From IMG/VR virus record IMGVR_UViG_3300020411_000002: a stretch of 64,000 bases of DNA, one strand, 5' to 3'. Source of the stretch: a virus (lineage: Duplodnaviria > Caudoviricetes). The notes below the pieces were generated by a model. It was given only the letters and a program-made list of their open reading frames with translations. It searched no databases and was not told the DNA's origin. The translations under genes were made by a program, and so were the position numbers. This document shows positions 12,411 through 52,434 of the stretch, in pieces (position 1 is the first letter of the stretch; each line of letters opens with the position of its first letter).

Positions 12411-12412
12411 AA

Positions 12413-13486: not shown

Positions 13487-13497
13487 AAGTTACCTCT

Positions 13498-15938: not shown

Positions 15939-15948
15939 TGCTGTTACC

Positions 15949-19659: not shown

Positions 19660-19667
19660 GTTATTTC

Positions 19668-20654: not shown

Positions 20655-20676
20655 AATCCTCGCCTAAAAACGCGGA

Positions 20677-20704
20677 AAGGGAGGGACCGTAGTCTTACTC
20701 CCTT
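20677..20704 (-). terminator. Stem-loop with C(UACG)G tetraloop just before the array; possible weak terminator or processing site
   Basis: Minus strand AAGGGAG-TAA-GAC-TACG-GTC-C-CTCCCTT; T tract displaced downstream. Confidence 0.5.
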
Positions 20705-20711
20705 AACAGGT

Positions 20712-21128
20712 TTATTCTCTGATTACTGCAAATACTGCTTTACCATCGATAGGTGTAGTGTTGAAAGTAATCTCTACAGTGTTTTCGTCAACTGTAGTAA
20801 TATCGTCAGGAACGATAACTTTGCCCGCACTATCAAATACCGTTACCAAGTACGCTACGCTATTCATGTTGTGAACAATATTCCACGTAGTAGCAGCTTC
20901 GCTTTGAGCATGAACATAGTTATCGGTGTTACCTGCAACATCGTCTAGTAGCACTGCTTGAAGTGTACCAGAAATGTTCATTAGTATTTCACCTTCTTTA
21001 AGCTCAATACCAGTAAGCTGACGAGGACCTGCACCTTGTCGAACAATAACAGAGTTAGCTGGAACATCACTAGGCAAGTACGGTCGCAAAGGAAGTTCTG
21101 TCTGAATGAAATCAGTAAAAGCACTCAT
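20712..21128 (-). CDS. Putative virion structural protein
   Basis: C-terminal YVHAQSEAATTWNIVHN..V.V.D...N.V.ITF module common in phage fibre-associated proteins. Confidence 0.6.
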   Translation of the reverse strand: MSAFTDFIQTELPLRPYLPSDVPANSVIVRQGAGPRQLTGIELKEGEILMNISGTLQAVLLDDVAGNTDNYVHAQSEAATTWNIVHNMNSVAYLVTVFDSAGKVIVPDDITTVDENTVEITFNTTPIDGKAVFAVIRE

Positions 21129-22786
21129 TAATCAGTCTCCTCTACTTCTAGTACAAATGTACCTGATGTGTTAGAACCAGCAAACGCGCTATCTGAAATC
21201 CAGATGTGATCGCCATTTGCATCAAAGTCGCCGTCGCTATTTACAACCGTAAAGCCTTTCTGAACTTCACGCTTATCTGGATAGTACGTAAGAACGTCTG
21301 CGCCTTTGTATGAAACAATTAGGTTATTAACGTCATAAACGTTAGTACCAATAGCAACATACTGAGCTAATGCAGGCACTGTAATATCACGTTGTACCAT
21401 ACCAGCAACAAGATACGAATCACCAGAAGTAATTGTACTACCTTGTACGTCGGCTAGGTTAGTAATAGTAAGTCCAGAGAAAGTGTGGTCGCCACGAGCA
21501 ACAGTGTCATCGACTGTTAGCGTAGTACGCCAGCGTGTATCGTTAACTTTAGTCCAGTTACCAGAAAGAACACCACCAGAAGCCGATAGAGAATCAGGTG
21601 CGTTAAGTAACTTCTGATCAGCACGAACTTCAACAGTGTAGTCTTCACCTTCTTGGCTTGAACGTAAACTGTTACCACCGTTAACAATAACGATTTGTGC
21701 ATCAGGTACATCATCTGCTACGCTAACTTTCCAGTTAGTAGTAGCCGTTGAACCGTTAGCTTCACGAACTGCATAGATTTCTACGTTGTTCGTATCGACT
21801 TGATAACCAATAGTGTCACCGCTACGAGTAACAGTTTTAGTAGCACCGTAAGTGTTTGCATCTGCTACGCTTAGACCTGCATTCGGGCGATACTCTACAG
21901 TGTCGGCATTGCTGATAGTCATAGACACATCAACACTTTCACTGCCTTTAACTGCTTGCTGTCCAGCAGGATAGCTGTAACCAATAGCAGCAAACGTAGG
22001 CTTAACTTGCGAAACAATCATTGTATCTGTAGAAGTGAATACATCACCCTCAGTACCTAGCAAGTTAGTAGCAACTGCACGAATCGCTAAATCACCAGAG
22101 CGGTTAGATACAGTGAACGTACCAGTAATCGCTTTGAATCCAGCACCAGCACTATCAGCAGCACCTAGAGTTAGATTCTTTTCTTGACTGCTTACACCGT
22201 AGTTAAGCAGACGTACTTCTTCTGCATCGTTTCCAACAACACCAGATAGAGTAACAGTGTCGCCTTGTTTAACTTCTGTCTGAGAGCCTGGATAAGCACC
22301 GAGATTTAGCTGAGTGATTTCAGGACCGCCAATAAGAACGTTTAGTGTACATGAAAACTCTGCACCAGTTGAACTAACAACAGTGATAGTTTGGTCAGTA
22401 ACTTCTGGGTCTAAAGTCAGTTCTACGAAACCATAATAAAGACGAGGGTTATTTGGGTCTGCACTAATGTTTTCAATTAAAGCAGCTTGACCATTTACAG
22501 TAGCTTCAATAGAAGAAGCAGCCATATCAGGCTCAGCCATGAATTGAACACGTACAGTTTCAGTGTTAGTAACAGCATGATCGAGATAGAAATCAGCAGG
22601 GATAGTATTTGGAACGTACTCTTTCAAACCAACAATGCCTTCACCTACAGGCTCTATGTCGATAATAAAAATACCACCTGCTGTTCTCAAATCCACGTAC
22701 TGTTTAGGCACAGCGTGTAATGCATCTACTGGATCACCAGAGAGCGAAGCATGCCCAACAACCTTGGGGGAATGGAGTTTCATCAA
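21128..22786 (-). CDS. Putative fibre / Ig-like virion protein
   Basis: N-terminal DP..ALHAVPKQYVD fibre-type motif followed by Thr/Val/Ser-rich beta-sandwich-like sequence; 552 aa. Confidence 0.55.
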   Translation of the reverse strand: MMKLHSPKVVGHASLSGDPVDALHAVPKQYVDLRTAGGIFIIDIEPVGEGIVGLKEYVPNTIPADFYLDHAVTNTETVRVQFMAEPDMAASSIEATVNGQAALIENISADPNNPRLYYGFVELTLDPEVTDQTITVVSSTGAEFSCTLNVLIGGPEITQLNLGAYPGSQTEVKQGDTVTLSGVVGNDAEEVRLLNYGVSSQEKNLTLGAADSAGAGFKAITGTFTVSNRSGDLAIRAVATNLLGTEGDVFTSTDTMIVSQVKPTFAAIGYSYPAGQQAVKGSESVDVSMTISNADTVEYRPNAGLSVADANTYGATKTVTRSGDTIGYQVDTNNVEIYAVREANGSTATTNWKVSVADDVPDAQIVIVNGGNSLRSSQEGEDYTVEVRADQKLLNAPDSLSASGGVLSGNWTKVNDTRWRTTLTVDDTVARGDHTFSGLTITNLADVQGSTITSGDSYLVAGMVQRDITVPALAQYVAIGTNVYDVNNLIVSYKGADVLTYYPDKREVQKGFTVVNSDGDFDANGDHIWISDSAFAGSNTSGTFVLEVEETD

Positions 22787-32862: not shown

Positions 32863-33546
32863 TTAAATGTCTACAACTACTATCAGATGCTTAACTTCGC
32901 CGTCCATTCGAACTGTACCAAGTTCTACATCAATGCCCGGTATCTGTTTTTCAATCTCACGTTCAAGCTCAGTAGCCCAAGAACCAAACTGACCTACTCG
33001 AAGACCGTGTTTACGTCTGTAAGAACGTAGCGTTGAAATTGCATCATAGAAATAATAAACTTCGCCCGGCAACATTTCACGCGCACGAATAAACTCAATC
33101 TTCTTCATACCATTGATACGAACATTTTTGAGTTTACGTGTTAGGTCCGTGTCTTCGCGTGGATGATTAAGCATTGTAACAGATACAGGAGTAGCACCGG
33201 CACCTTTGCTAGGATTAAGAGAGTTATCTTTATCCATTCCAGCAGGGGCGCCCCGTAAGCTGTCTTTAATAGACTTACCATCTACTTTACCACGATGCGA
33301 TTTAGACCGTTTAAGAATGTTCATTGCTTCACGTTCAGTAAGCTTGAACTTTGTATCGAGCGAGAATTCTTCTATCAGATAGTAATTGCCTCGTGGGGCA
33401 GGCATCAATCCATAAACATCACCACTAGCTAGTTCTAAATCATATTTTGGATTGTGGTCTAGAAACTTAGCAGGGCGTTTACCCATGAACTTATACCAAG
33501 CGCACTTTTTAACGTCAATTGGTTTAGCTGATAGACTAATAAGCAT
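32863..33546 (-). CDS. SLS-tagged putative head protein
   Basis: Likely start ATG 33546 (MLISLSAKP), not 33684; shares a W-initiated domain with 46850..47803 and 57534..59315. Confidence 0.65.
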   Translation of the reverse strand: MLISLSAKPIDVKKCAWYKFMGKRPAKFLDHNPKYDLELASGDVYGLMPAPRGNYYLIEEFSLDTKFKLTEREAMNILKRSKSHRGKVDGKSIKDSLRGAPAGMDKDNSLNPSKGAGATPVSVTMLNHPREDTDLTRKLKNVRINGMKKIEFIRAREMLPGEVYYFYDAISTLRSYRRKHGLRVGQFGSWATELEREIEKQIPGIDVELGTVRMDGEVKHLIVVVDI

Positions 33547-37725: not shown

Positions 37726-38808
37726 TTATACTCGTTGACCTTTTGCTACAGAGCGAACGTTTGCAAGAACGAACGAGAACGTTTCAGCAATTAACCAACC
37801 TTTGTCAGTTGCGCCTTGGTTCGCACCATCAGTAGGAGTAGAACGTACACCGCGAGTAGTGTAAACGCCGTGGTTTTCAGGAGAAGATACAACGTAGATT
37901 TCGCCTTTATCAAGAACGCGTTGGTTCTGAGCGCGGAAACCGTCAGTCATAAGTTCTAGTCCAACTAGTGTACCGATTTTACCGTTAACAACTAGGTCGA
38001 ACTTGCTTACTGGATCAAGGAATGAGCTGAACTCAGGGTTACCGATAATGTCTTTCCAGAAGTCATTAGAGATAATCGCTTTGTTAGCAGACAAGTTCCA
38101 GTCAGTAACCTGTTCTTGCATTGACGCAAGCATCTTAGGTGTAAGTTCACCAGAGATATAAGTAAGATCGTTTGCACGACCTACAGTGCGGTCAGCAGCG
38201 CGTTTCCAGATACGGTCTTCGCCAGTCATGATAGCTTCCATAGCTTGATCGCGAATGTCGCGAAGCAGGTCGCCAGATGATTGGTCAAGTTCCATTTGAG
38301 ATACGCGAACGTTTGACTTAACTTCGTATTCAGATGGACGGAACTGACGATCACGAATCAGTTGATAACCCATTTGAGTTGGTGAAGTTGAGATAACCGC
38401 TTGCACTTCGTGGCGTGGCATATAAACGTTAGGGAATTCACCTTGACGTAGAGTTTTACCAACCGCTAAGTTACGCATAAAGCCAGCGCGTGAAGCTTGC
38501 TCAGAAATTTCGTCAGCTACAGCAGCACCCAGTGCAGCCCAGTCTTCAAGAGAAGCGTTAGCTTGTGCAACTAGCTCCGCTTCTTGACGAGAGATTTCTT
38601 CTGATGGAACATGTTCTTGCTTGATTTCGCCAGAAGCCGACATGCTCATGATCGTACTAATAGCTTCTAGTAGCTCGCCTTTATCGTGCGCGTTAATTTC
38701 GCCGTTAGAAGAAAGAGCAGATAAGCCGGAACCCGGCAGTTTCAAAGCTTCGATAGGATCGCCGTTCGCCAGTACATGACGGAAGTTACGTGCGTTAGAT
38801 TTGTTCAT
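37726..38808 (-). CDS. Major capsid protein (HK97 fold likely)
   Basis: 360 aa after scaffold and decoration genes; E-loop/backbone-helix pattern (AIMTGEDRIW), GKIGTLVGLELMTD; GGAG RBS and downstream terminator. Confidence 0.85.
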   Translation of the reverse strand: MNKSNARNFRHVLANGDPIEALKLPGSGLSALSSNGEINAHDKGELLEAISTIMSMSASGEIKQEHVPSEEISRQEAELVAQANASLEDWAALGAAVADEISEQASRAGFMRNLAVGKTLRQGEFPNVYMPRHEVQAVISTSPTQMGYQLIRDRQFRPSEYEVKSNVRVSQMELDQSSGDLLRDIRDQAMEAIMTGEDRIWKRAADRTVGRANDLTYISGELTPKMLASMQEQVTDWNLSANKAIISNDFWKDIIGNPEFSSFLDPVSKFDLVVNGKIGTLVGLELMTDGFRAQNQRVLDKGEIYVVSSPENHGVYTTRGVRSTPTDGANQGATDKGWLIAETFSFVLANVRSVAKGQRV

Positions 38809-39588: not shown

Positions 39589-41559
39589 TTAGCGTGGCAG
39601 ATTTTTCAGCAGGCCAGCCGCGCGATTTTTGAAATCACCTGAAGCTACGCTAGACTGTGAAGTCATTGCACTAGATTCAGATTGTGGTTTACTCGCTACA
39701 GTGCGTGGCTGCAAGCGATTTTCGAAAGTGCTTGAAGTAGAAGCAGTGCCGTCTTTACGTGCGTAAGAAGCAGAAGCTACCATACGAGAAATTTCGTTTT
39801 GGGTTTCCGCAGGCTTCTTAACAAGTTCAACAGCTTGTTCTACCAGCATACTATTAAGGGTATCAGCGTTAGCTTCAAACACGTTGTCAACTAATTGACG
39901 AGCGTTTTCAACACCAGATGCCTTAAGAGTGTTTGCTAAGCTATCAATGATTGGGTTTGATTTACCATTGAATACACCACGGTTAATACCCATCATAGCT
40001 GTAGCCAGAGCAGCAGTGAAACGATCAACTACAGTAGCGTCACGTTCTTCCTGTGCAGAAGCATAAGCTTCAACTTTAGCTTGGGCGTCTGCGGCAACTG
40101 AGCGTTCAACTACGGTTTGCATAGTATGTTCGTCAAATGCGATAGACTCAAAGCCAAATTCACGTAGACCTTCCGATACACCGTTAGAAGCGATAGACTT
40201 CATAACAGCAGAAGCGAAGCTTTGTGAGCGGAAGATTTCTTTAACCGTGCCTTCAACGTTAGACTCTGATGCAACAGCAATAGGCGTAGCGCTATGCATT
40301 GCAATCCAGCGGTTTTCGCCAGCAACAGTTGCAGCATTAACTAGAGCAATCTTGTCTGCTTCCAGACCGTTTTCGCTTGCGTATGCTACCGCTTCCATAA
40401 CGTCTAAAGAAACCGTTACTTCGGCAACAGATGAATCAGATTCAACATCTTCTTCTTCTTCATCTTCAAGACCGTCTACGTCATCCGAATCTTCTTCATC
40501 TTCGTCATCTTCGTAAATGTCTTCTTCGTCGTCGCCTTCGTCTTCTTCATCGTCTTCAAGGTCGTCGTCTTCAAGGTCGTCGTCTTCAACGTCATCGTCG
40601 TCAGAGCTTGATACGATAGTAAGGTCGTCTAGGTCGTCGTCTTCATCGTCAAAGAGGTCGTCGTCTTCTAGATCGGCTTCGATTTCGTCTAACTCAGAAT
40701 CTTCATCATCGAAGATATCATCGTCTTCCATCATTCCGGCGTCCATTTCAAGTACAGACTGTTCCAGTTCTTGAATATCTTCTGGGTCAACAACCGCAGA
40801 CGAGCAAGACGGACAAACTGTAATGTCTTCACTTGAAGCAATAATGTGCATACCGCATTCTTCCGAATCAACACACTGGAAGTAGTGAGCTTCGTTGCCG
40901 TATTTGCTAGACAATGATTTAAGTACTGAGCTATCAGATTCAATGTCTTGTGCAGTTACGTCTTCGCCGTAGAACGGGCTGAACTTCACGTTATCGCTAC
41001 TGTTAGAAATAAATGATACATTAGTACCATCAACGTAAGATAAAGCAGGTTCGTGACCTTGAGCAATCGCGATAAAGTCTTGCTGCGCTTCTTCCATAGA
41101 AGAGGCTACAACGACAATACCTTGGCTGCCGCTAAGCTCACTGTAGTCGCTTGATTCAGATTCGAACTCTTCTTCAACGTCTGCTTCAAAATCAACATGA
41201 GCGTTACAAGAAGGGCAGTTAGAAACTGATTCGCAAGAGTCCGCAATGATATGAGTAGAGCATTCACTACACATAGCGTATTCTACAACTACCTTATCGT
41301 CGGGGTCAGCACTGGAAGTTACTTCGAGATCAGTATCCACTACATTCATGGTTTCACCACCGTCGCGAAGTGGATTCAAGAAAGTATTTCCTGAGCCTGC
41401 GACAGTAGCTAGTGCGAAAGAGTTATCACTAGAAGCGAGTACTTCTAAGCTTTCTCCAAGCGCAACCTTGGCGTAGTTACGGATAGCTTCATCCCGAGAA
41501 CTAGCAGTAACAACAATACCAGCGAAAGAAGGTTGCTGGGTTTTCTGTTTTACTGTCAT
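39589..41559 (-). CDS. Putative prohead scaffold: two Zn-ribbon domains, acidic tract, helical C terminus
   Basis: Duplicated GIVV.ASS..EA unit, each with Cys pairs ending CPSC; long D/E tract; first gene of the head operon with AGGAG RBS. Confidence 0.6.
   Translation of the reverse strand: MTVKQKTQQPSFAGIVVTASSRDEAIRNYAKVALGESLEVLASSDNSFALATVAGSGNTFLNPLRDGGETMNVVDTDLEVTSSADPDDKVVVEYAMCSECSTHIIADSCESVSNCPSCNAHVDFEADVEEEFESESSDYSELSGSQGIVVVASSMEEAQQDFIAIAQGHEPALSYVDGTNVSFISNSSDNVKFSPFYGEDVTAQDIESDSSVLKSLSSKYGNEAHYFQCVDSEECGMHIIASSEDITVCPSCSSAVVDPEDIQELEQSVLEMDAGMMEDDDIFDDEDSELDEIEADLEDDDLFDDEDDDLDDLTIVSSSDDDDVEDDDLEDDDLEDDEEDEGDDEEDIYEDDEDEEDSDDVDGLEDEEEEDVESDSSVAEVTVSLDVMEAVAYASENGLEADKIALVNAATVAGENRWIAMHSATPIAVASESNVEGTVKEIFRSQSFASAVMKSIASNGVSEGLREFGFESIAFDEHTMQTVVERSVAADAQAKVEAYASAQEERDATVVDRFTAALATAMMGINRGVFNGKSNPIIDSLANTLKASGVENARQLVDNVFEANADTLNSMLVEQAVELVKKPAETQNEISRMVASASYARKDGTASTSSTFENRLQPRTVASKPQSESSAMTSQSSVASGDFKNRAAGLLKNLPR
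40551..40595. repeat. 15-bp tandem repeat (two exact copies plus one degenerate) encoding DDDLE
   Basis: cgtcttcaaggtcgt x2 then cgtcttcaacgtcat. Confidence 0.8.
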
Positions 41560-42429: not shown

Positions 42430-43587
42430 TTACTTTTTTGCAGCAGTTTCCTTCTTAGCTGGTGCAGCTTTAGTCGCTGGTGCAGGTACGTCTTCAGGCT
42501 TCTTGTACTTAAAGCCTAAGTCTTTGATTTTATCCATTAGAGCTTTTTGCTCTTTCAAGATTTTATCTTTAGCCGCAGGAGTCTTAGCATTCGCCAAACG
42601 CGCTGTACGAGTAGCTAACTGTTTGAATAACGGATTAGCTTTCTTCATTACTTCTGGATCTTTCAGAAGCTTTGCATTACCGCCGCGTGGTGCTTTAGCT
42701 GGGGCTTTAGCAGGAGTCTTCGCTGTAGGCTTCTTACCACCTTTCTCACGAGCAGTAGCGTCTTTGATTGCGTTTTCCATTTTCTCAACGTATTCAGGAC
42801 GCAACTTACGATTCATCGCTTTAGCTTTCATCTTGAAGAACTTGAATTCTTCTTTTAGATCTTCACTGCCACGTTTATGTGCGTTAGCGCCTGGGCGACG
42901 GAAGTTACTTGGAGTCTTTGGTACACCCGGAGAGTTAGGACCTAACTTCTTACCAGCAGGTGCTTTAGCTGGGGTCTTACCAGTTTGCTTTGGATCTTTG
43001 TTTGCATTCTTATCGCCGCCAGTGATTACACTAAAGATACGACGAGCAGACATACGCGGACCGAGATACTGACGAGTAAGACGACCACCATTTGCAGGCT
43101 GCTTAAATACATGCCAACCTGGGGCAATCATGTTTGGTGCGCGTTTCTTACGACCCATTTGAACACCAGCACCTTGACCGCCAGTACCTTTCTTAGGTTG
43201 TGCAGAAAGCATTTCAAGAGTACCCATATCGATAACGGTATCTTCCATTGCTTCTGCTTCGATAGAAAGATCCATTTCGTCTTCATGATAATCTTCTGTA
43301 CCGTAGAACGGAGTTGAAGAAATAGATTCCATATCACGCAATGCAAAAATCTTTTGCTTCATTGAAGGCATGTACTTAACTTCTTTTGCAACGCGAAGTA
43401 GTACAATAGTTTCTTTCTTGGTTTTAAGAACGTAACGCCCAGGCTGCTTGTGTACAATACGCGGAGCAGGACGAATTTGCTTTAAAGCATCTTGTAAAGT
43501 CTTTGGAACTTCAACAGCCTTTTTGGCAGGTTTTTTACCACCAGCACGAGGTGCGCTTAGAGATTCAAACGTAATATTAATAGACAT
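42430..43587 (-). CDS. Basic histone-H1-like putative head protein with SLS tag
   Basis: MSINITFESLSA; KTPAKAPA twice; K/A/P-rich C-terminal half. Confidence 0.65.
   Translation of the reverse strand: MSINITFESLSAPRAGGKKPAKKAVEVPKTLQDALKQIRPAPRIVHKQPGRYVLKTKKETIVLLRVAKEVKYMPSMKQKIFALRDMESISSTPFYGTEDYHEDEMDLSIEAEAMEDTVIDMGTLEMLSAQPKKGTGGQGAGVQMGRKKRAPNMIAPGWHVFKQPANGGRLTRQYLGPRMSARRIFSVITGGDKNANKDPKQTGKTPAKAPAGKKLGPNSPGVPKTPSNFRRPGANAHKRGSEDLKEEFKFFKMKAKAMNRKLRPEYVEKMENAIKDATAREKGGKKPTAKTPAKAPAKAPRGGNAKLLKDPEVMKKANPLFKQLATRTARLANAKTPAAKDKILKEQKALMDKIKDLGFKYKKPEDVPAPATKAAPAKKETAAKK
42433..42439 (-). promoter_or_regulatory. Candidate -1 frameshift heptamer A AAA AAG
   Basis: In-frame GCA AAA AAG TAA; AAGGA 9 nt upstream; the -1 frame is open for 210 codons downstream. 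Confidence 0.55.
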
Positions 43588-43651: not shown

Positions 43652-44182
43652 TTAACCAAATCGCGTTCCAACAAATTTACCATTCCTATAAAGAGGTTTA
43701 GAAGCTTTTGGATCAAGCATACCAAGCTGAAATTCTTTGGTAGCATATTCACCACCACCAGGAGCGTGGTAATCTAAAAGGAATTTAAGAACGTTATCCT
43801 TTGAGCCGTGTACAGAAATCACCGAATCGCCACCAGGACCATAACCTGAATCCCAATTCTCAAAGCGGAAACTTACTTTGAATTTGTTAAATATGTCTAA
43901 CTGCTCTTCAAGTTCAATCAATGCGCTATCGTAAGCTTCTTGGTCATCAGCAGAATCAGGCAAAGTTATAGGTCTAGCTACTTTAAACTGTGAGCCCGTA
44001 AGATTTTCTATTGCAGATAACACATCGCCTATTGGCTGCACAACTAAGATAGTAGAATGGGCTTCACCTCCAGCAGTACCTGTATTACCAATTAGCTTTT
44101 GTGCTTGTGCAAGTTTACGTGCAACTCTCTTATAAGTGGAAGATCTTGCGCTAATGCTAGACAAGTTGATTGTTATATTCAT
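43652..44182 (-). CDS. SxS-tagged putative head protein
   Basis: MNITINLSSISAR; GPGGDSVISVHGSKDNVLKFL module. Confidence 0.65.
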   Translation of the reverse strand: MNITINLSSISARSSTYKRVARKLAQAQKLIGNTGTAGGEAHSTILVVQPIGDVLSAIENLTGSQFKVARPITLPDSADDQEAYDSALIELEEQLDIFNKFKVSFRFENWDSGYGPGGDSVISVHGSKDNVLKFLLDYHAPGGGEYATKEFQLGMLDPKASKPLYRNGKFVGTRFG

Positions 44183-44190
44183 AAAGTTTC

Positions 44191-44667
44191 CTATATAGTT
44201 TCGTACAGACGTTTGAGACCGTTCATCTTGCCGGGATAGCCTTTACGTTGCAACAAGTTAAAGAAGTCTACGGGTTTCATTTCATGTAACGGGTTGCTAT
44301 CTCTAGCTGTACCGCGCGGATGAATGTAGTCTTTAACGAAATCATCAAATTCGATTTCGTATTCTACACTGTCTTCAACAAACTCTAAGAACTGGGCCCA
44401 AAGTTTATCTTCGTCAGCAGTGTTTAGGTCTACAAGTTCGTATCTATCTACGTCACGCGCCGGTAGCTCTTTAGGATAAGCTAGTATGCCGTGTCTGTAG
44501 TTACGTGAATCACGAATACCAGCAAAGCGTTTATCTTTTGCAGCATTCTCTGCATCAATAAATTCTACTGGCTGTGGATTAGTAGGTTGAGCGCCGATTG
44601 AATATGGACGGAATTTCAATCCATAGTAAAACTTCTGCGGCGCGCTTAATGAGATAAAGATTTCCAT
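44191..44667 (-). CDS. DarA C-terminal-like domain protein (defence against restriction), SLS-tagged
   Basis: YYGLKFRPYSIGAQP...RHGILAYPKELP..DVDRYEL matches the DarA_C signature as recalled. Confidence 0.7.
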   Translation of the reverse strand: MEIFISLSAPQKFYYGLKFRPYSIGAQPTNPQPVEFIDAENAAKDKRFAGIRDSRNYRHGILAYPKELPARDVDRYELVDLNTADEDKLWAQFLEFVEDSVEYEIEFDDFVKDYIHPRGTARDSNPLHEMKPVDFFNLLQRKGYPGKMNGLKRLYETI

Positions 44668-46388
44668 TATACGTCTTTGCCTTCTTCTGCAAGCTTAACC
44701 ATCTTCTCAATAGTTACAGGCATACGGGTTTCCAGTTTGCTGTAGTAGTCTTTCAAGATAAGAGGGTCAATGTAGTTAGCAATAGCTGTAGCTACTGTAA
44801 GTTTACCATTAGCAAAGTGACCAAGGTCTTTAGCTACTTTAAGAAGTGCTTTCTTCAACCATTCGTTAACCTGCTTAGCATCAGGCTTACGCTGTCTTTC
44901 GTAAAGAGGGCACTTATCAATAATACTCTTTGCTAAACGCGTTCCACGTAAAGTACGGAATTTGTGAACTGTTACTTTTGGAGGCATACCTATTTCACGT
45001 AGATACTTGTTAACTACGTTTGCAGATATTGGACGACCGTTAAAAGTAATTAGTCTGTCTTTACGTACTTTAGGTTTGCGTTTTCCTTTTTCCAAAATGT
45101 TATCTTTGGCTAAAGTATCTAACATTTCAATCAAAAGGCGTTGATTGGGATTAGAAGTAACAAGTCTATGTCTTTGCTCTTGGCTCTTCTTGCCTGGATA
45201 CTTCAACTCACGATTGCTACCCTTCTTGTAGTAGTGTCCCACTTGAAGAGTAGTAATACCGTATGTAGGCTTACCATCAGTAGAGTTACTAGCACCACCG
45301 ATTCGTCCGTAAGTCTGGTATACTAACTCGCACACACCAGCAATAACACCAGTACGAGTAGTAATGCCTTCAGATTTGAAAGTGTCTAACCAACGCTTAC
45401 GAATACCATTTGCTTTCTTATCGAATACAGCAACAGCCGCAAACTTCTCTGCAACACCAGCAGCTTTGTGTTCAACAGTGTATATGTTTGACCAGCCTTG
45501 AGCCATAGGTGCTTTAGTCTGACAAACGTATCCATCGTCTTTCTTTGGATTGTAATTCGGATTCATCTGTACTTCACCGACAGGCGTACCATTTAGCATC
45601 TTGCCTTGTACAGTGTAGTACTTCATCTTATCGTCAATGTATCCAACGAAGCCTTCTGGAATTGGGTGTCTGCGAATACCAGCAGCTTTGATTTCGTCTA
45701 TAACAGTGCGTACACCAAGATAAGGTTTACCGCTTTGTCTAACGAGATTCATTACAAAGTTTTTGGGAATTGCATTAAGCTCACGCTTTAGACGATTGTA
45801 TTCTTTTAGCTTTGCAGTGTCTTTGTATTTCTTACGGGTGTCAGCATCAATGTCGATATCCAAACCACCCATAGAAGATGTAAGACGTTTAAGCTTTGTT
45901 TCTAATTCGTCTTGATCACCTAACTCAACCGAGAAGTGTCGAGCAATAGATGTATCGTTTAAATCAGACACAAGCACTGTAAGCTTGTCTAAGGCATTTT
46001 TTCTAGTAGTCTCGTCTTTACTGTTTACCACAGTATTGAACTTACGAATGACTTCTAGTTGCGCCCTTGAAACCGCATGTTCATTTGCGATAGATTCTTT
46101 CATTGCTTGGCGAATAGAGTATGAAAGATTAGTAGCGAGTTGCAACATATTCTCGCTGTCCCATATTAGGTACCCATCTTTCAAATATTCAACTAGCTCT
46201 TCAAATGATTCTTCATCTATATCAAAGGCGTGAACGAATTTGATTGCATTACTATACCAATCATCTAGATTAGCATAAACGTCGAGGGGCATTTTAAACC
46301 CCTCTTGTTCTGAGAACGCTACCATTGCTAAGATTTTTACAAAGCTATTAGCAACAGCAGGATTTACTCTGGAAAGTGATATTAACAT
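44667..46388 (-). CDS. DNA topoisomerase IB (bacterial/poxviral type) with N-terminal extension
   Basis: Catalytic set present: GRIG (Arg), ITTL..GH, YPGK (Lys), HKFRT (Arg), LGH (His), NYIDP (Tyr); begins MLISLSR. Confidence 0.85.
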   Translation of the reverse strand: MLISLSRVNPAVANSFVKILAMVAFSEQEGFKMPLDVYANLDDWYSNAIKFVHAFDIDEESFEELVEYLKDGYLIWDSENMLQLATNLSYSIRQAMKESIANEHAVSRAQLEVIRKFNTVVNSKDETTRKNALDKLTVLVSDLNDTSIARHFSVELGDQDELETKLKRLTSSMGGLDIDIDADTRKKYKDTAKLKEYNRLKRELNAIPKNFVMNLVRQSGKPYLGVRTVIDEIKAAGIRRHPIPEGFVGYIDDKMKYYTVQGKMLNGTPVGEVQMNPNYNPKKDDGYVCQTKAPMAQGWSNIYTVEHKAAGVAEKFAAVAVFDKKANGIRKRWLDTFKSEGITTRTGVIAGVCELVYQTYGRIGGASNSTDGKPTYGITTLQVGHYYKKGSNRELKYPGKKSQEQRHRLVTSNPNQRLLIEMLDTLAKDNILEKGKRKPKVRKDRLITFNGRPISANVVNKYLREIGMPPKVTVHKFRTLRGTRLAKSIIDKCPLYERQRKPDAKQVNEWLKKALLKVAKDLGHFANGKLTVATAIANYIDPLILKDYYSKLETRMPVTIEKMVKLAEEGKDV

Positions 46389-46396
46389 AGTTAACC

Positions 46397-46834
46397 TTAT
46401 ACGCCGATGTTAGCAGCGTCTATCCAACTTATAGCTTGCTCTTTGGATTCGAAAATTCTAAAATCAATATCAGAATTATCAAAGATTCGAGTCAACTGCG
46501 CTCTTGGAAGAGCTTTTAATGAAGGGCGAAACACAACTGCGACTTTACAAACGTTTCCGGTCAATGTACTAATCCAGTGGTGGAATCGCAAGAACTCTTG
46601 AAACTTACTTTCTGCCTCTGGAGTTGAAACTGTCTGGTCACTTACGTCTATCAAGTACTTCCAATATAATGAACGGTCACAGGAAAGGATGCGATTGATT
46701 GCTTCTATAACACCAGACGCATTATCAATAGAAAAAGGACCGATAAGAATAACATTAATTGTCAGATCGTCTTGTACCACAGCGTAGGTGCCTTTAGGAC
46801 AGCTTATTGCTTTCTTGTCCATCTGATCTGCCAT
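46397..46834 (-). CDS. STAS/SEC14 (SpoIIAA-like) domain protein
   Basis: YLID.S..., KVAVV, C-terminal FRIFESKEQAISWI signature. Confidence 0.65.
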   Translation of the reverse strand: MADQMDKKAISCPKGTYAVVQDDLTINVILIGPFSIDNASGVIEAINRILSCDRSLYWKYLIDVSDQTVSTPEAESKFQEFLRFHHWISTLTGNVCKVAVVFRPSLKALPRAQLTRIFDNSDIDFRIFESKEQAISWIDAANIGV

Positions 46835-46849
46835 AAGCGCCTCATATAA

Positions 46850-47803
46850 TTAAACTGAGTCATAACTTCCTGTATAGTTTCCGTCTTTTAGATAACGATT
46901 AACAAAATATTTCTCAGCTATCTCCCATCCGATAGGAGTACTAAATCCACGAGCGCTTCTACCATGTACCATCGCTTCACAGAGAATAGCAAAGGCTTCG
47001 TCCCACCACGGATATGAATAACCCGGATGATTGAATTGGTCTTTGTGTAACTTCTTAGCCGCAATCTGACGTTTGAACATAATAAGGTCACTGTTTCTAA
47101 CTACGTTCTTTAACGCATAGTGAGCTAGTTCGTGAGTAAGTACTTGGGCAAGAAGTTCGACTGTAATTGAACCAAACAAACGTTGAAGCTGAGGTGGATC
47201 AATTACTATATAGATATCTTTGTTAGCTTTAGTTCGGTCTGTTTGAGTAACAATACTTGTACCAAAGTTAGGACCGACAGCTATCTTAATAGGAAACTTG
47301 AAAGGGATGCGCGTTCCCAAATAACCTAACGACTTCTCAACCATATCGTACATGGAATCAGAAGGTGGCATTACTGAACTACGTAAAGACGGAAACATTT
47401 TAGGTTTATCCAGTCTAACGAAGTTCACAGGTTGAGACCCTGGAATTTTTCCATGAGCTTTGTCTGGGTCTTCTCTTTTTATCTTAACGACAGCAGGCTT
47501 TAAATCAGGTACAGAATCCAATTCAGAGAAAGAATCTTTGAACGTAGACTTACCGGGCTTAACACTTCTACCGTCAATCTTACCCATATAAGGCTTGCTG
47601 TTTTCAACCATCATTTCAGCATCTTTCTCAGAGATAGGAACGAATGTATTCATATCTTGAGTTATTACTAGGCTGCCTTTATTTGGTGCAATGCAATACA
47701 CTGCACGAGTTGGAATCGTAACTTTAGAATTAGGTCCGTCAAATTCCATCGGCGAACCTAAATGTCTAAACCACGAACCGACAGATAGTACGTCAATCTT
47801 CAT
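46850..47803 (-). CDS. Zincin-like metallopeptidase domain fused to a shared head-protein domain
   Basis: LTHELAHY (HExxH) with downstream WWDEAFA providing a third ligand candidate. Confidence 0.7.
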   Translation of the reverse strand: MKIDVLSVGSWFRHLGSPMEFDGPNSKVTIPTRAVYCIAPNKGSLVITQDMNTFVPISEKDAEMMVENSKPYMGKIDGRSVKPGKSTFKDSFSELDSVPDLKPAVVKIKREDPDKAHGKIPGSQPVNFVRLDKPKMFPSLRSSVMPPSDSMYDMVEKSLGYLGTRIPFKFPIKIAVGPNFGTSIVTQTDRTKANKDIYIVIDPPQLQRLFGSITVELLAQVLTHELAHYALKNVVRNSDLIMFKRQIAAKKLHKDQFNHPGYSYPWWDEAFAILCEAMVHGRSARGFSTPIGWEIAEKYFVNRYLKDGNYTGSYDSV

Positions 47804-47815
47804 GGTATTTCCTAA

Positions 47816-48427
47816 CTATATATAATCCACATAAGCGCCATTTCCAGTTTGAGAGCTATATACTCTTGCAACTTGTTCAGCTTGTTTCTTAGTGCCTGGG
47901 TACTGCATAAGCTTAGTACCGTTATGATTATACGCCATGTAACCGGAAGTTCTTTTCACTACGTTTTCTTCTCGCATGAAGTCAAGAGAGTCAAGGTCAT
48001 TAGAATCTGGTTCTCTTTTTCTAGAAATTCTATCAACTCGTTCTCTTCTAATAGAACGAAGAGTTTCAATATCTTTTGGCGGTTGTTTTTTACCTGTAGA
48101 AGAATTTGTCTGATAACCTTTAAGCGGCTTAATAAGCTTCAATGCTGCAATGATTGTAGGAAACTGTTTAGCAACTGACAGCTTTTTAACAGCGCTCTTC
48201 ACGTTAATGCTGGCTTTAGCATTGGCAAACTTTTCTACGCGCTCAGGATCAGCAGATTTTAAGAATCCTAAGAGCGCATCGAGACCTGCAGTATCTACAA
48301 GCTTTTCTTTGCTGTAAGTTTCAAGAATAGGAATTACTTTCTTTGCGCTCTTGCCGAAAAGTATTTCAGCGTTTGCCATTTGTTTTTTAGTAGCAGATTC
48401 GCTACGAATGTTTAAGTTAATTTTCAT
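47816..48427 (-). CDS. SxS-tagged basic putative head protein
   Basis: MKINLNIRSESA. Confidence 0.65.
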   Translation of the reverse strand: MKINLNIRSESATKKQMANAEILFGKSAKKVIPILETYSKEKLVDTAGLDALLGFLKSADPERVEKFANAKASINVKSAVKKLSVAKQFPTIIAALKLIKPLKGYQTNSSTGKKQPPKDIETLRSIRRERVDRISRKREPDSNDLDSLDFMREENVVKRTSGYMAYNHNGTKLMQYPGTKKQAEQVARVYSSQTGNGAYVDYI

Positions 48428-48495: not shown

Positions 48496-48930
48496 TTAGG
48501 CAAATTTCTTTAGCTTAGCATTGATTGCTTTCAAATCTCTTTTTGCATCACCGCTAGGTTTGATATCGATAGTCTCATCCCCACCTCGCATTATATTGTA
48601 AGCTACGATAGAGATTAAGTACCCATCAGAGCGAGGAAGAGAATAGTTGGCATCGCGTACATCAGACTTTTCAGGATAGCTAGAAATAGTTACAGAATAA
48701 TTACCTACCGTTTTAGCCAAGTAGTTAGCTTCTTCAAAGTCCCAACCATCCTTTAATAGAGATTGAGTAAGTTCAGGTAATTTACTCACTGGAAGAGAAT
48801 TCCCGGTCGGTCTGTTAGGACTGTACGCTCTGTCGTAAGTATACGTGCCATTATACATTGTACCTCGTGCGTCTTCTGAATAGCCTTTAGAGGTTGCAGA
48901 CATTGATTGTAAATTGATAGTAAGTTGCAT
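48496..48930 (-). CDS. SxS-tagged putative head protein
   Basis: MQLTINLQSMSA; AGGA RBS. Confidence 0.65.
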   Translation of the reverse strand: MQLTINLQSMSATSKGYSEDARGTMYNGTYTYDRAYSPNRPTGNSLPVSKLPELTQSLLKDGWDFEEANYLAKTVGNYSVTISSYPEKSDVRDANYSLPRSDGYLISIVAYNIMRGGDETIDIKPSGDAKRDLKAINAKLKKFA

Positions 48931-49573: not shown

Positions 49574-50374
49574 TTAACGCATAATACTCATTACTTGGTC
49601 TGGATTATGGTGATTAGCAACGTAAGCTGGATCTTCTACCGCGCTATTCTCAAACCCTGTAATGTTGTGTAAGTAACGATAGACCAGACGATTGTTTTCT
49701 AAGTATGTAGGTTTATTAACTACAGTGTGAGAACAAACACGGCGTAAGTTTTCTTTATATACCGTATGACCGCAGAACGCACAAGTATAAGCTTGATACC
49801 ACATACCAATGCTGTAAGTATTCAAGTCGTGGGTAAGAATACGATTAGCAAGCACAGGGTCTTTAGTTCTATCGAATGCAAGCAACTGAATGATACGTGC
49901 ATGATTACCTATAAAGTTAGGCATAGATTTCATGTACACATCTAAGATAACACCTTTAGCTTTGGTAATATCTTTGTTGTCGTGTTCTTGGTGAGTAGGT
50001 TTACCTTTCCAAGTTTTATAAGCTAACATTCCCAAGTCTGGACGGAAACGCAATGCTTCGGCAGTAGATAGACAGTCACCATTTGTGTTTGGTATATCTG
50101 TAATAACCGCAGGAACAGGCACCATTACGTAGTCACGCAAGTTAGGACTGATTTGATAATGCTCAGCAGCCATAGGTAGCCAAGCGTTTGCATCGATATC
50201 AATATTATCAGAAGCACCAGTAATACTAGGCTTTAGTGTCACGCGATTAGACTTACCAACATCTTTTAGTTCAGTAGGTTGTGCGGCAATATTTCTTTGA
50301 GAGATATCAAACGAAGAACTCATAAAGCTATTTTCTTCATTTGGTATCATTACGTTTTCTAAATCAATCTTCAT
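49574..50374 (-). CDS. Prohead maturation protease (HK97/herpes-like clan) with Cys-rich insertion
   Basis: N.NGD, EHDN (His), YSIG, GFENSAVEDPA (Ser motif); CAFC...CSH insert. Confidence 0.8.
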   Translation of the reverse strand: MKIDLENVMIPNEENSFMSSSFDISQRNIAAQPTELKDVGKSNRVTLKPSITGASDNIDIDANAWLPMAAEHYQISPNLRDYVMVPVPAVITDIPNTNGDCLSTAEALRFRPDLGMLAYKTWKGKPTHQEHDNKDITKAKGVILDVYMKSMPNFIGNHARIIQLLAFDRTKDPVLANRILTHDLNTYSIGMWYQAYTCAFCGHTVYKENLRRVCSHTVVNKPTYLENNRLVYRYLHNITGFENSAVEDPAYVANHHNPDQVMSIMR

Positions 50375-50377
50375 GAC

Positions 50378-51019
50378 CTACCTCGTAAAACATATATCGT
50401 TAGAGTGAATCGAATAGATTCCTTTGCTTACTTTGTGACTTCTTGCATCACCTACATCAGCATCGGAGCAGTATCTACAATACGCTTTCACAATATGCTC
50501 GTTAGGTTTTTTAATACGCTTTGCTTCGAATACGCTTTGGTAAACAAGGCGTGAGTTGTTTCTACCGTTGTCATCTGCAATGTAGTAGCCGACAACTTCT
50601 TCAAATTCTGGAAGTTGAAGAACAAGCTTTTCCAGTCTAGCAATGAAAGAGCGAATAGGCTGAATGCCGTCCATAGAGAATCTACTTAAAGCAGTGTTAA
50701 CTTTCTTAATAGACTCAGTAATGTTATACAGACCTTTTTCGTCTAACTCACTAGGAAAGCGGATAAGTCCTTTGTACAAGAAGTTTAATTCCGCTGCAAG
50801 AGTTCTAAATGTTTCTTGGTCAACAATATCCATACGGCGTTTGGTATGCGTACCGTCATTGAACTTTTGTTGGGTTTGCTTATCAACAATCTTTATTAAA
50901 GATGCTGTTTTACGAATAGCCCAAGGAAGAATAAAACTATTAGCTAGCTTTCTATATGGGTATTCTCGGTCATTAGTTACGTTTAGCTTTATATTGTCAA
51001 AGCTTGGTAAGTTACTCAT
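50378..51019 (-). CDS. Hypothetical protein
   Basis: 213-aa coupled ORF. Confidence 0.65.
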   Translation of the reverse strand: MSNLPSFDNIKLNVTNDREYPYRKLANSFILPWAIRKTASLIKIVDKQTQQKFNDGTHTKRRMDIVDQETFRTLAAELNFLYKGLIRFPSELDEKGLYNITESIKKVNTALSRFSMDGIQPIRSFIARLEKLVLQLPEFEEVVGYYIADDNGRNNSRLVYQSVFEAKRIKKPNEHIVKAYCRYCSDADVGDARSHKVSKGIYSIHSNDICFTR

Positions 51020-52434
51020 AGGTAATCCTTATTCAAGTTATGCTTTATCCAGAGTTTGCATTCATCATACGTCTGACGTATTGGATTGAATAAAACAACT
51101 CGATTAGATTTTACGATTGTGTAAGGCTTGGTGTCTTGTCTACCAGTATGAAAAGAAGATTCTGAAAACCCTTCATAGAGCTTAGCTTTCCAACTACGGC
51201 GACTCTTACCATTGCCTTCAATTTCAGGGTCAGACTCGATACAGCCAATAATACGATTATCGAACATAACGTCAAAGCGTGTTCGCTCTTTAGAATCTAG
51301 ACGTTTTTGTTTAGGACATACTCGAAAAGAAATACGAGGAGTAACGGCTGAATCAGATTCTAGTCCGTCTATTGTGTCAAGCTCTAAAGGAACTTGTTCT
51401 TCCTCAGGCTCTTCTTCCATTTCTTTCTCTAGCTCTTCCTCAGTAGGCAAAAAGCCCTCTTCAATCATTTCTTGAATGGCTTGAATTTTGGCAATCTTTA
51501 CTGATAGTGCCTCTAAGTCCAAGTCTTTAAACCAATCAGAAAACAAATTAATGAAAGTTTCTAAAGTGTCCTTAACTTCAGGCGGCTCATAGTCTTCGTC
51601 TTCGTCTTCTGGCTCTTCTTCCTCAGAAACCTCGTCAGCCATTTCGTCTATATCATCTTCATTCGATAGAGATACAAACCTTTTGGATGCAAGGGAATCT
51701 AGAAATAATTCAAGCTCTGTTTTGTAGTCGTTAACGCTGGTGGATTTGCGGGCAGCACTTACACTACTTAAACCGTTACCATCCATGTAGCGTTTAATTT
51801 CTTTATAGTTGGTAGGACCCAAGAAAGCACCAAGTACAGTATCGACTAAACGATTGCTGGTCTTAGACAATCCTTTTTGACCTACAATGTTTTCAGTAAT
51901 AGACTTTAGAACTTGCGTAGCTAACTTAGCGCCTTCCATTTCTTCTTTAGGTGCACCTTTAGCTTTGAACTTACCTTGCGCGAAAGTCTTGGTAAATGAT
52001 AGGAAGTTTTTATTTCCTTGGGGCGAGAACTTGTTAGCTACTACGTCTTTGATACGCGGTATGTTACGTCTAAACTTGGAATAGTTTTCTTGTATATCTT
52101 GTTTGACTGAATACTTGTTTTGAAAAACGCGCTCGTCAATAGCTCTGTCCGTAATAGCCTGTTTAGCTCTGGCTCGTCTACTTAACTTAACGGGTTCTTT
52201 TACTTCTGGCTTTGATGGTAGCGCAGGTTTTGCTTGCTTTCTTTCTGCCTTAGGAAGCTGAATTTCTTTACGCTTAGCTTTAGAAGAATTATCCAGTGAT
52301 AGAGTTCCAGCCCTAACACCTTGTGCATACTTGCTCTTTGGATGCGCTTCAATATAAGCTTTGCGAGTAGCTGGCGAAGCTTTCTTCCACCAGCCTGCTT
52401 CTTCGGCAGATAAACTAGTTATGCCATAATCCAT
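51016..52434 (-). CDS. SLS-tagged putative head protein with basic N half and acidic C half
   Basis: MDYGITSLSA; internal FVSLSN and LESDSA; WWKKAS...YIEAHPKSKY. Confidence 0.65.
   Translation of the reverse strand: MDYGITSLSAEEAGWWKKASPATRKAYIEAHPKSKYAQGVRAGTLSLDNSSKAKRKEIQLPKAERKQAKPALPSKPEVKEPVKLSRRARAKQAITDRAIDERVFQNKYSVKQDIQENYSKFRRNIPRIKDVVANKFSPQGNKNFLSFTKTFAQGKFKAKGAPKEEMEGAKLATQVLKSITENIVGQKGLSKTSNRLVDTVLGAFLGPTNYKEIKRYMDGNGLSSVSAARKSTSVNDYKTELELFLDSLASKRFVSLSNEDDIDEMADEVSEEEEPEDEDEDYEPPEVKDTLETFINLFSDWFKDLDLEALSVKIAKIQAIQEMIEEGFLPTEEELEKEMEEEPEEEQVPLELDTIDGLESDSAVTPRISFRVCPKQKRLDSKERTRFDVMFDNRIIGCIESDPEIEGNGKSRRSWKAKLYEGFSESSFHTGRQDTKPYTIVKSNRVVLFNPIRQTYDECKLWIKHNLNKDYL

What the first reader, a model, noticed from the sequence alone, without database searches (positions are those of the whole stretch)
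44667..46388. Type IB topoisomerase carrying the putative head-loading tag
Seen: complete R-K-R-H-Y catalytic set, a long unassigned N-terminal extension, an N terminus MLISLSR, and a location among head genes rather than replication genes. Known: poxviruses package TopIB in virions, where it supports early transcription; tailed phages more commonly encode type II topoisomerases. Inference: an ejected TopIB that relaxes incoming DNA or aids first-wave transcription.
Basis: partly seen in the sequence, partly recalled or inferred. Interest (0 to 1): 0.7.

Follow-up and report, generated by a model that had tools for sequence, protein, structure and literature searches.

The report
Tagged type IB topoisomerase, jumbo phage
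A marine giant phage encodes a complete DNA-relaxing enzyme (topoisomerase IB) that starts with the same short address-like peptide as about ten unrelated neighbouring proteins, so it is probably loaded into the phage head and delivered with the DNA, as poxviruses do, though this has not been shown.

Summary
Observation confirmed. The ORF at 44667-46388 (-) encodes a 573-aa type IB topoisomerase. It matches Pfam PF01028 (E 3.9e-16). The catalytic residues R362, K400, R478, H524 and Y539 are invariant or nearly so in 111 relatives. The AlphaFold model (pLDDT 96) matches human, archaeal, bacterial and variola TopIB at Z 19-24. Tyrosine recombinases reach Z 14 or less and protelomerases about Z 7.

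TopIB is already annotated in the relatives phiRSL1, Lu11, PaBG and NCTB.

The N-terminal peptide MLISLS is real. It is flexible in the model, conserved in all full-length close orthologues, and shared at the amino-acid level (codons differ) with at least 10 unrelated ORFs in the window. In relatives the TopIB N terminus partly follows each genome's own version of the tag (S-L-S type versus L-A-V-A type).

Support for head loading is indirect:
- The gene lies between the prohead protease and the scaffold and capsid genes.
- It is translationally coupled to a tagged DarA_C gene.
- Tag-like motifs recur in the scaffold and at the capsid protein N terminus.
- Two tagged PaBG proteins were found in virions.
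- A relative fuses TopIB to the anti-Thoeris domain Tad6.

TopIB itself has never been detected in a virion.

Other first-stage notes of this scan already flagged the tag on this genome.

Estimated odds: TopIB about 0.97, member of the tagged set about 0.85, packaged about 0.55.

The parts
44667..46388 (-). TopIB coding sequence, 573 aa plus stop
   Evidence: ORF list and translation. PF01028 above the curated cut-off. Full-length match to phrog_23460.
46362..46388 (-). Codons 1-9, the N-terminal tag MLISLSRVN
   Evidence: No secondary structure and the lowest pLDDT block (77) in the model. M-L-[IV]-[ST]-L-S is found in 7 of the 10 orthologues that keep the N terminus; three others have related forms. 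The motif is shared with unrelated ORFs through different codons.
45732..46361 (-). Residues 10-219, family-specific all-helical N-terminal domain
   Evidence: pLDDT 95-98. Only generic helical matches at Z 6.4 or less. No Pfam or Atlas hit.
45477..45731 (-). Residues 220-304, mainly beta domain corresponding to the DNA-binding N domain or cap part of TopIB
   Evidence: Strands at 250-302. Aligned range 248-555 to variola TopIB 27-289 and 256-569 to human Top1 339-754.
44670..45476 (-). Residues 305-573, TopIB catalytic domain
   Evidence: Z 23.7 to human Top1, 21.0 to archaeal 6z01, 19.5 to D. radiodurans 3m4a and 19.0 to variola 3igc.
45303..45305 (-). Arg362 codon (catalytic)
   Evidence: Aligned to D. 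radiodurans R137. Invariant in 111 sequences. Codon checked.
45189..45191 (-). Lys400 codon (catalytic)
   Evidence: Aligned to D. radiodurans K174. At least 90% conserved.
44955..44957 (-). Arg478 codon (catalytic), in the H-K-F-R-T motif
   Evidence: Aligned to D. radiodurans R239. Invariant.
44817..44819 (-). His524 codon (catalytic)
   Evidence: Aligned to D. radiodurans N280, the His/Asn position. Invariant.
44772..44774 (-). Tyr539 codon, the nucleophile, in A-N-Y-I-D-P
   Evidence: Aligned to the N-Y-I-D-P motif of archaeal TopIB 6z01. Invariant.
44191..44667 (-). Tagged DarA_C-domain ORF (starts MEIFISLSA), translationally coupled to TopIB
   Evidence: PF18789 DarA_C, 35.5 bits against a cut-off of 27. 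phrog_1926 'released from the phage upon host infection'. TAATG stop/start overlap.
49574..50374 (-). Prohead (head maturation) protease
   Evidence: phrog_18299, E 5.6e-91.
37726..38808 (-). Major head protein, with a tag-like L-S-A-L-S-S at residues 29-34
   Evidence: phrog_2522, E 1.7e-94, with the profile match starting at residue 31. The motif is conserved as MTALSS, LALSSS, LALSSA and MALSAS in relatives.
39589..41559 (-). Acidic scaffold-like protein with repeated hydrophobic-x-[AST]-S-S motifs
   Evidence: Sequence: VVTASS, EVLASS, EVTSSA, VVVASS, HIIASS, TIVSSS. Homologue of PaBG gp82, next to the capsid gene.
42430..43587 (-). Tagged Lys/Ala/Pro-rich ORF (starts MSINITFESLSA)
   Evidence: Sequence.
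43652..44182 (-). Tagged ORF (starts MNITINLSSISA)
47816..48427 (-). Tagged ORF (starts MKINLNIRSESA)
48496..48930 (-). Tagged ORF (starts MQLTINLQSMSA)

Best explanation
The gene encodes an active-type, jumbo-phage-specific type IB topoisomerase. Tyr539 would attack one DNA strand, and Arg362, Lys400, Arg478 and His524 would stabilise the transition state. A 3'-phosphotyrosyl intermediate would let the duplex swivel and religate without ATP. This chemistry is inferred from the family.

A 210-residue helical domain and a beta domain precede the catalytic domain and probably close the clamp on DNA (inferred).

The first 6-9 residues are a flexible peptide: a hydrophobic strand ending in small residues, S-L-S. 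It belongs to a tag shared by at least 10 unrelated proteins of this phage and by many proteins of related phages. The most likely role of the tag resembles the T4 capsid targeting sequence. It would bring the protein into the prohead core, where the end of the tag resembles the sites the prohead protease seems to cut in the scaffold and capsid protein.

TopIB would then sit in the filled head with the DarA_C protein, a basic DNA-binding protein and peptidases. It would enter the cell with the genome and relax torsional stress on the incoming 250-kb DNA before any phage gene is expressed.

Shown here: enzyme identity, the intact active site, and membership of the tagged set. Inferred: packaging, cleavage, ejection and the early role.
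For: Identity:
- PF01028, E 3.9e-16.
- Profile match to 2f4q and 6z01 with catalytic residues aligned.
- Invariant pentad in 111 sequences.
- Model pLDDT 96.3, pTM 0.91.
- The top 21 Foldseek hits are all TopIB.
- Z 23.7 for TopIB, against 14.2 or less for recombinases and 7.1 for TelK.

Tag:
- Residues 1-9 are unstructured.
- The tag is conserved in close orthologues while residues 7-13 vary.
- 37 of 122 family representatives have a tag-like motif in the first 28 residues, against 0-8 in other 28-residue windows.
- In the window, 6 of 70 ORF N termini match against 0.6% of internal windows.
- The codons differ, so the signal is at protein level.
- The TopIB N terminus tracks the genome's version of the tag. 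It reads MLVSLS or MKQFTSISA where neighbours read ISLS or ISESA, and MEMTIAAS, MQISLAAA or MEISIAAA where neighbours read MEMxLALAA or MKIQLAVAA. Glu at position 2 correlates with its frequency in neighbouring tags (rho 0.80, 15 non-independent loci).

Head link:
- The gene lies between the prohead protease and the scaffold and capsid genes.
- TAATG couples it to a tagged DarA_C gene. P1 DarA sits on the inner capsid surface and leaves with the DNA (PMC12810830).
- Tag-like motifs recur in the scaffold and at residues 29-34 of the capsid protein.
- PaBG gp83 and the 1969-aa gp202 both begin with the tag and are in the PaBG virion proteome (PMC7412058, Table 1).
- T4 shows the principle: a 10-residue CTS on internal proteins and a 7-residue propeptide on the packaged enzyme Alt (PMC9026906).
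- A relative fuses the anti-Thoeris domain Tad6 to TopIB. This window has a separate Tad6 ORF with a tag-like start. This fits early, pre-made delivery.
Against: - No virion data exist for any phage TopIB that I could find.
- PaBG TopIB (gp84) is not among the 14 Coomassie bands identified. That method is of low sensitivity, so this counts only weakly.
- In phiRSL1 the gene lies among NAD, polyamine and nucleotide metabolism genes. In PaBG and Lu11 its upstream neighbours include thymidylate kinase; PaBG also has MmcB-like and SprT-like genes upstream.
- In this subclade the residue after S-L-S is Arg or Lys rather than the usual Ala, so cleavage may differ or be absent.
- The Tad6-TopIB fusion has no recognisable tag.
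- One relative (L025) has an S-type TopIB tag among A-type neighbours.
- The tag's receptor and the protease specificity are unknown.
Confidence: 0.55

Rival explanations
1. The enzyme is an ordinary cytoplasmic phage TopIB. It would be made with the middle or late genes to relax DNA during replication, transcription or concatemer packaging, and would not be retained in the virion. The shared N-terminal peptide would then serve another common purpose, such as transient recruitment to the assembly site, timed degradation, or processing by a protease.
For: The upstream neighbours in PaBG and Lu11 include thymidylate kinase, and in PaBG also DNA-repair genes; in phiRSL1 the neighbours are metabolic genes. 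TopIB is absent from the PaBG band list. Iyer et al. file it under DNA topology functions (PMC7824862). The P1-like position after S-L-S is Arg or Lys in this subclade.
Against: The tag tracks the genome's own version together with unrelated proteins. Two tagged PaBG proteins are virion proteins. The gene is coupled to a DarA_C gene and embedded between the protease and the scaffold. The phage has separate type II topoisomerase genes for replication in relatives.
Confidence: 0.3
2. TopIB is packaged but works inside the capsid. It would relieve twist that builds up while about 250 kb of DNA is pumped in or released, rather than acting on transcription in the cell.
For: The packaging evidence is the same as for the main explanation. 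TopIB needs neither ATP nor Mg, so it could act in a capsid (family knowledge). Co-tagged basic DNA-binding proteins lie next door.
Against: There are no data at all. Fusion to an anti-defence domain points to a role in the cell.
Confidence: 0.1
3. The protein is not a topoisomerase but a protelomerase or tyrosine recombinase.
For: It shares the tyrosine-recombinase superfamily fold.
Against: TopIB structures score Z 18.6-23.7. Recombinases score 14.2 or less, TelK 7.1 and TelA 6.8. Pfam and PDB sequence profiles hit only TopIB. The tyrosine lies in the TopIB-type N-Y-I-D-P motif.
Confidence: 0.02

Closest known systems
Phage-specific TopIB of phiRSL1 (ORF108), Lu11 (gp197), PaBG (gp84), NCTB and Motura (annotated in GenBank; noted by Iyer, Anantharaman, Krishnan, Burroughs and Aravind 2021, PMC7824862)
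   Same: It is an orthologue: 53.5% identity to NCTB and about 32% to PaBG and Lu11 over the full length. It has the same length of about 560 aa and the same N-terminal helical domain.
   Different: Nothing in those annotations or papers mentions the N-terminal tag or virion association. Here and in NCTB the gene sits wholly inside the protease-to-capsid block.
Poxvirus (vaccinia/variola) TopIB, packaged in virion cores
   Same: Same catalytic fold and residues (Z 19.0 to 3igc). Proposed to be carried in the particle and to act at the start of infection.
   Different: The poxvirus enzyme has 314 aa and no helical N domain. Its packaging does not use a short N-terminal tag (own knowledge). The tyrosine motif here is of the eukaryote/archaeal type, with 15 residues between His and Tyr rather than 9. 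Packaging here is unproven.
T4 capsid targeting sequence on internal proteins IPI-III, and the propeptide of the packaged enzyme Alt (PMC9026906)
   Same: A short N-terminal peptide of 7-10 residues on unrelated proteins, next to head genes, ending in a motif like the prohead protease sites. The cargo includes enzymes and anti-restriction proteins.
   Different: The sequence differs: T4 sites end in L/I-x-E, while here they are a hydrophobic strand plus S-x-S(A) or L-A-V-A. Targeting and cleavage have not been tested here.
Phage P1 Dar system (DarA, Hdf, DarB; PMC12810830) and polyvalent early effectors (PMC5512222)
   Same: The neighbouring gene has a DarA_C domain. Other tagged ORFs have KMPT-N and Tad6 domains. 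PaBG packages a tagged 1969-aa helicase-like protein.
   Different: The domains are on separate small proteins, each with its own tag, rather than on one giant protein. I did not follow up the single mention of topoisomerase in the polyvalent-protein survey (PMC5512222).

Membership tests
Type IB topoisomerase (Pfam PF01028) | Sequence match to the catalytic core above the curated threshold | tested here: met
   59.5 bits against a cut-off of 23.7, E 3.9e-16. PDB profile hits 2f4q (E 4.6e-12) and 6z01 (E 1.1e-11).
Type IB topoisomerase (Pfam PF01028) | Catalytic Arg-Lys-Arg-His/Asn-Tyr set | tested here: met
   R362, K400, R478 and H524 align to D. radiodurans R137, K174, R239 and N280. Y539 lies in N-Y-I-D-P. 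The residues are invariant or nearly so in 111 sequences.
Type IB topoisomerase (Pfam PF01028) | TopIB fold rather than another tyrosine-recombinase superfamily member | tested here: met
   Z 23.7 (rmsd 3.2, 284 aligned) to human Top1. Recombinases score 14.2 or less and protelomerases 7.1 or less.
Type IB topoisomerase (Pfam PF01028) | ATP-independent relaxation through a 3'-phosphotyrosyl intermediate | not testable with these tools
   Needs a relaxation assay with wild-type and Tyr539Phe protein.
T4-type capsid targeting sequence / internal head protein | Short N-terminal peptide shared by otherwise unrelated proteins | tested here: met
T4-type capsid targeting sequence / internal head protein | The peptide ends at a prohead-protease cleavage site and is removed | tested here: inconclusive
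   Similar motifs recur in the scaffold and at the capsid protein N terminus. No cleavage data exist. TopIB in this subclade has Arg or Lys where others have Ala.
T4-type capsid targeting sequence / internal head protein | The tagged proteins are present in virions | tested here: inconclusive
   PaBG gp83 and gp202 are tagged and found in virions. TopIB gp84 is not in that 14-band list.
T4-type capsid targeting sequence / internal head protein | The peptide is sufficient to load a foreign protein | not testable with these tools
   Needs a reporter fusion in a cultivable relative.
Protelomerase / tyrosine recombinase | Closest structural and sequence relatives are recombinases or telomere resolvases | tested here: not met
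   TelK Z 7.1, TelA 6.8 and XerH 14.2, against TopIB 18.6-23.7. No such Pfam hit.
Poxvirus-type virion TopIB | Compact two-domain enzyme of about 314 aa | tested here: not met
   573 aa, with an extra helical domain at residues 10-219.
Poxvirus-type virion TopIB | Enzyme carried in the virus particle | not testable with these tools
   No proteome covers it. Literature searches found none.

The most novel reading that the evidence does not exclude
This would be a bacteriophage counterpart of the poxvirus virion topoisomerase. TopIB would be one item of a set of separately tagged early effectors (DarA_C, Tad6, KMPT-N/peptidase and basic DNA binders). A short, lineage-specific N-terminal address code would load them into the head, and they would be injected with the genome. 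The code would be a simple, transferable handle for loading enzymes into jumbo-phage capsids.
Probability: 0.45. Interest if true: 0.75.

Novelty: new variant of a known kind. Interest (0 to 1): 0.55.

Why it matters
No tailed phage is known to carry a topoisomerase in its particle, within the literature I could search. If this one does, torsional management of the entering genome becomes part of the phage's pre-made toolkit. That would parallel poxviruses.

The 6-12-residue tag would also be a second, sequence-distinct capsid-targeting code after T4's. It is widespread: 572 family clusters at 50% identity match TopIB alone. It could be used to load proteins into jumbo-phage heads.

If TopIB is not packaged, it is still a new, well-modelled subfamily with a 210-residue helical domain of unknown role.

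Tried and rejected
- Complex prediction of the prohead protease with TopIB residues 1-40 gave no verdict (score 0.00). It counts neither way.
- Folding residues 1-222 alone from a single sequence gave pLDDT 47, which is unusable. The N domain was therefore searched only as part of the whole model. It gave generic helical matches at Z 6.4 or less and no Atlas or Pfam hit.
- I tested whether the HExxH ORF 46850-47803 is the SprT-like partner seen in PaBG. BLAST E was 0.38 and Pfam SprT-like E was 0.095, below the cut-off. Not supported.
- ORF 2-1450 is not the PaBG gp89 homologue either. It is a Tad6-domain protein.
- An RNA-level explanation of the tag was rejected because the codons differ.
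- Pfam on ten tagged neighbours from Lu11-type and NCTB-type loci gave nothing.
- No whole genome is held for this window, so the tag census is limited to 64 kb plus relatives.
- The Lu11 and phiRSL1 primary papers are not in the library.
- The first locus search, with the 111-sequence alignment, failed for lack of conserved stretches.
Full report
**What is there**

The minus-strand ORF at 44667-46388 encodes 573 residues beginning MLISLSR. AAGG lies a few bases upstream of the ATG. Residues 1-21 are conserved in orthologues, so this start is preferred over the internal Met22 that some gene callers used.

The window belongs to a jumbo myophage of the NCTB/PaBG/Lu11 group. TopIB is 53.5% identical to that of Phage NCTB and about 32% to those of PaBG and Lu11. 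Those phages, phiRSL1 and Motura are already known to encode a "phage-specific topoisomerase I" (PMC7824862).

**Enzyme identity**

- Pfam PF01028 matches at E 3.9e-16, well above its cut-off.
- A profile of 13 orthologues hits only D. radiodurans TopIB (2f4q) and an archaeal TopIB (6z01) among solved structures.
- In that alignment R362, K400, R478 and H524 fall on D. radiodurans R137, K174, R239 and N280. Y539 sits in A-N-Y-I-D-P, the eukaryote/archaeal tyrosine motif.
- R362, R478, H524 and Y539 are invariant and K400 is at least 90% conserved in 111 sequences of 24-54% identity.
- AlphaFold with this alignment gives pLDDT 96.3 and pTM 0.91.
- The 21 best Foldseek matches are all TopIB.
- By VIA-align, human Top1 scores Z 23.7 (rmsd 3.2, 284 aligned), archaeal TopIB 21.0, D. 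radiodurans 19.5 and variola 19.0. Tyrosine recombinases reach 14.2 at most. In the search that does not depend on Foldseek, TelK and TelA reach 7.1 and 6.8.

One family peculiarity: the residue aligned with the conserved Lys before the second Arg is His (H-K-F-R-T).

**N-terminal extension**

Residues 10-219 are eight or nine confidently modelled helices. Residues 220-304 are mostly beta and align with the DNA-binding N domain of variola TopIB and part of the human cap. The helical domain has no significant match. It is conserved in a large family: 572 clusters at 50% identity match at E 0.001 or better and 211 at E 1e-30 or better, mostly 540-570 aa.

**The tag**

- Residues 1-9 are the only unstructured, lower-confidence part of the model.
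- Seven of the ten orthologues that keep the N terminus read M-L-[IV]-[ST]-L-S. Three others have related forms. Residues 7-13 vary freely.
- Among 122 representatives, 37 have a tag-like motif in the first 28 residues, against 0-8 in other windows.
- In the window, unrelated ORFs begin MEIFISLSA, MNITINLSSISA, MSINITFESLSA, MKINLNIRSESA, MQLTINLQSMSA, MKILVSLSA, MKLLISLSN and MLISLSA.
- A regex hits 6 of 70 N termini against 0.6% of internal windows (p about 4e-6; the regex was written after the fact).
- The Ser, Leu, Ile and Ala codons differ between copies, so the constraint is on the peptide.
- The motif exists in lineage-specific versions. NCTB-type genomes use I-S-L-S or I-S-E-S-A. Lu11-type genomes use MKIQLAVAA or MEMxLALAA. 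TopIB mostly follows its genome's version: MLVSLS, MKQFTSISA, MEMTIAAS, MQISLAAA, MEISIAAA, and Lu11 MNVHIAVAAA.
- Glu at position 2 of TopIB correlates with its frequency in neighbouring tags (rho 0.80, 15 non-independent loci). The Ser-versus-Ala trend is weaker (rho 0.46), and locus L025 is an exception.

I conclude that TopIB is a genuine member of the tagged set.

**What the tag does**

This part is inference. Points in favour of head loading:

1. The gene order is prohead protease (phrog_18299), five ORFs, TopIB, DarA_C ORF, two tagged ORFs, acidic scaffold-like ORF, virion structural protein, major head protein.
2. The TopIB stop overlaps the start of a tagged ORF with a DarA_C domain (TAATG). 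P1 DarA lines the inner capsid and leaves with the DNA (PMC12810830).
3. The scaffold-like protein carries at least six hydrophobic-x-[AST]-S-S motifs. The capsid protein has L-S-A-L-S-S at residues 29-34, just where the capsid profile match begins. The motif is conserved in NCTB, PaBG and Lu11. The end of the tag therefore looks like a maturation-protease site.
4. In PaBG, gp83 (starts MLIKINLLEAVAA) and the 1969-aa helicase-like gp202 (MGSLFTLNSLSAA) carry the tag. Both were identified in virions (PMC7412058, Table 1).
5. T4 provides the precedent: a 10-residue capsid targeting sequence on the internal proteins and a 7-residue propeptide on the packaged enzyme Alt (PMC9026906).
6. The other tagged ORFs carry domains typical of proteins delivered at infection: DarA_C, KMPT-N (32863-33546) and Tad6 (2-1450). 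One relative fuses Tad6 directly to TopIB, in a locus that also holds DarA_C, KMPT-N/SprT-like, MmcB-like and thymidylate kinase genes.

Points against:

- No virion proteome lists a phage TopIB.
- PaBG gp84 is not among the 14 bands identified, though that gel-based method is insensitive.
- phiRSL1 places the gene among metabolic genes.
- PaBG and Lu11 have nucleotide-metabolism genes just upstream, and PaBG also has DNA-repair genes there.
- This subclade has Arg or Lys where other tags have Ala.
- The Tad6-TopIB fusion lacks a tag.

**Verdict**

TopIB identity is about 0.97. Membership of the tagged set is about 0.85. Packaging into the head is about 0.55. Ejection with an early role on the incoming DNA is about 0.45.

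The enzyme itself is known in this phage group. The tag and the packaging hypothesis are not in the literature I could search. Other first-stage notes of this scan had already flagged the tag, the cargo island and the DarA_C gene on this same genome. My checks agree with them.

Noticed in passing
window 2-1450 (-): This 483-aa ORF, which runs off the window edge, has a Tad6 domain (type I Thoeris inhibitor, PF25188, E 1.3e-35) and a tag-like start, MDTLNLIVSEA. In a relative (P0054, locus L038 8001-10355) the Tad6 domain is fused to the N terminus of TopIB.
   Followed up: partly
window 32863-33546 (-): Tagged ORF (starts MLISLSAK) with a KMPT-N domain (PF20294, E 3.5e-11). PaBG gp89 combines KMPT-N with a SprT-like peptidase and also has a tag-like start (MELAIAS).
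   Followed up: partly
PaBG record KF147891.1, 179714-181105 (+): The annotated gp224 start (180227) is probably too far downstream. The frame is open from 179714 and begins with a tag, MLLSLSLAS. Its window counterpart is 51016-52434, which has GITSLSA near its start.
   Followed up: no
L017-L030 (Lu11-type IMG/VR loci), about 11600-21600: Downstream of TopIB lies a run of 6-10 consecutive tagged ORFs. It includes proteins of about 600 and about 900 aa that share AAVSMKTALKYRRNWNK right after the tag. They have no Pfam match.
   Followed up: partly
window 44961-44966 (-), residues H475-K476: The TopIB family has His at the position of the conserved Lys that precedes the second catalytic Arg (H-K-F-R-T instead of A-K-x-F-R-T), with a Lys shifted by one residue.
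   Followed up: no
window 46397-46834 (-): The ORF directly upstream of TopIB is untagged and has a weak SpoIIAA-like/STAS match (E 0.011, below the cut-off).
   Followed up: no
P0048 and P0074 (metagenomic relatives): Other fused forms exist: TopIB with a C-terminal DUF5661, and TopIB behind a weak SprT-like match (23.1 bits, just under the cut-off).
   Followed up: no
window 46326-46388 (-): Public gene calls for near-identical copies (P0002 at 97% identity, and also P0003 and P0008) start at internal methionines and so drop the tag. Database N termini of this family are unreliable.
   Followed up: yes
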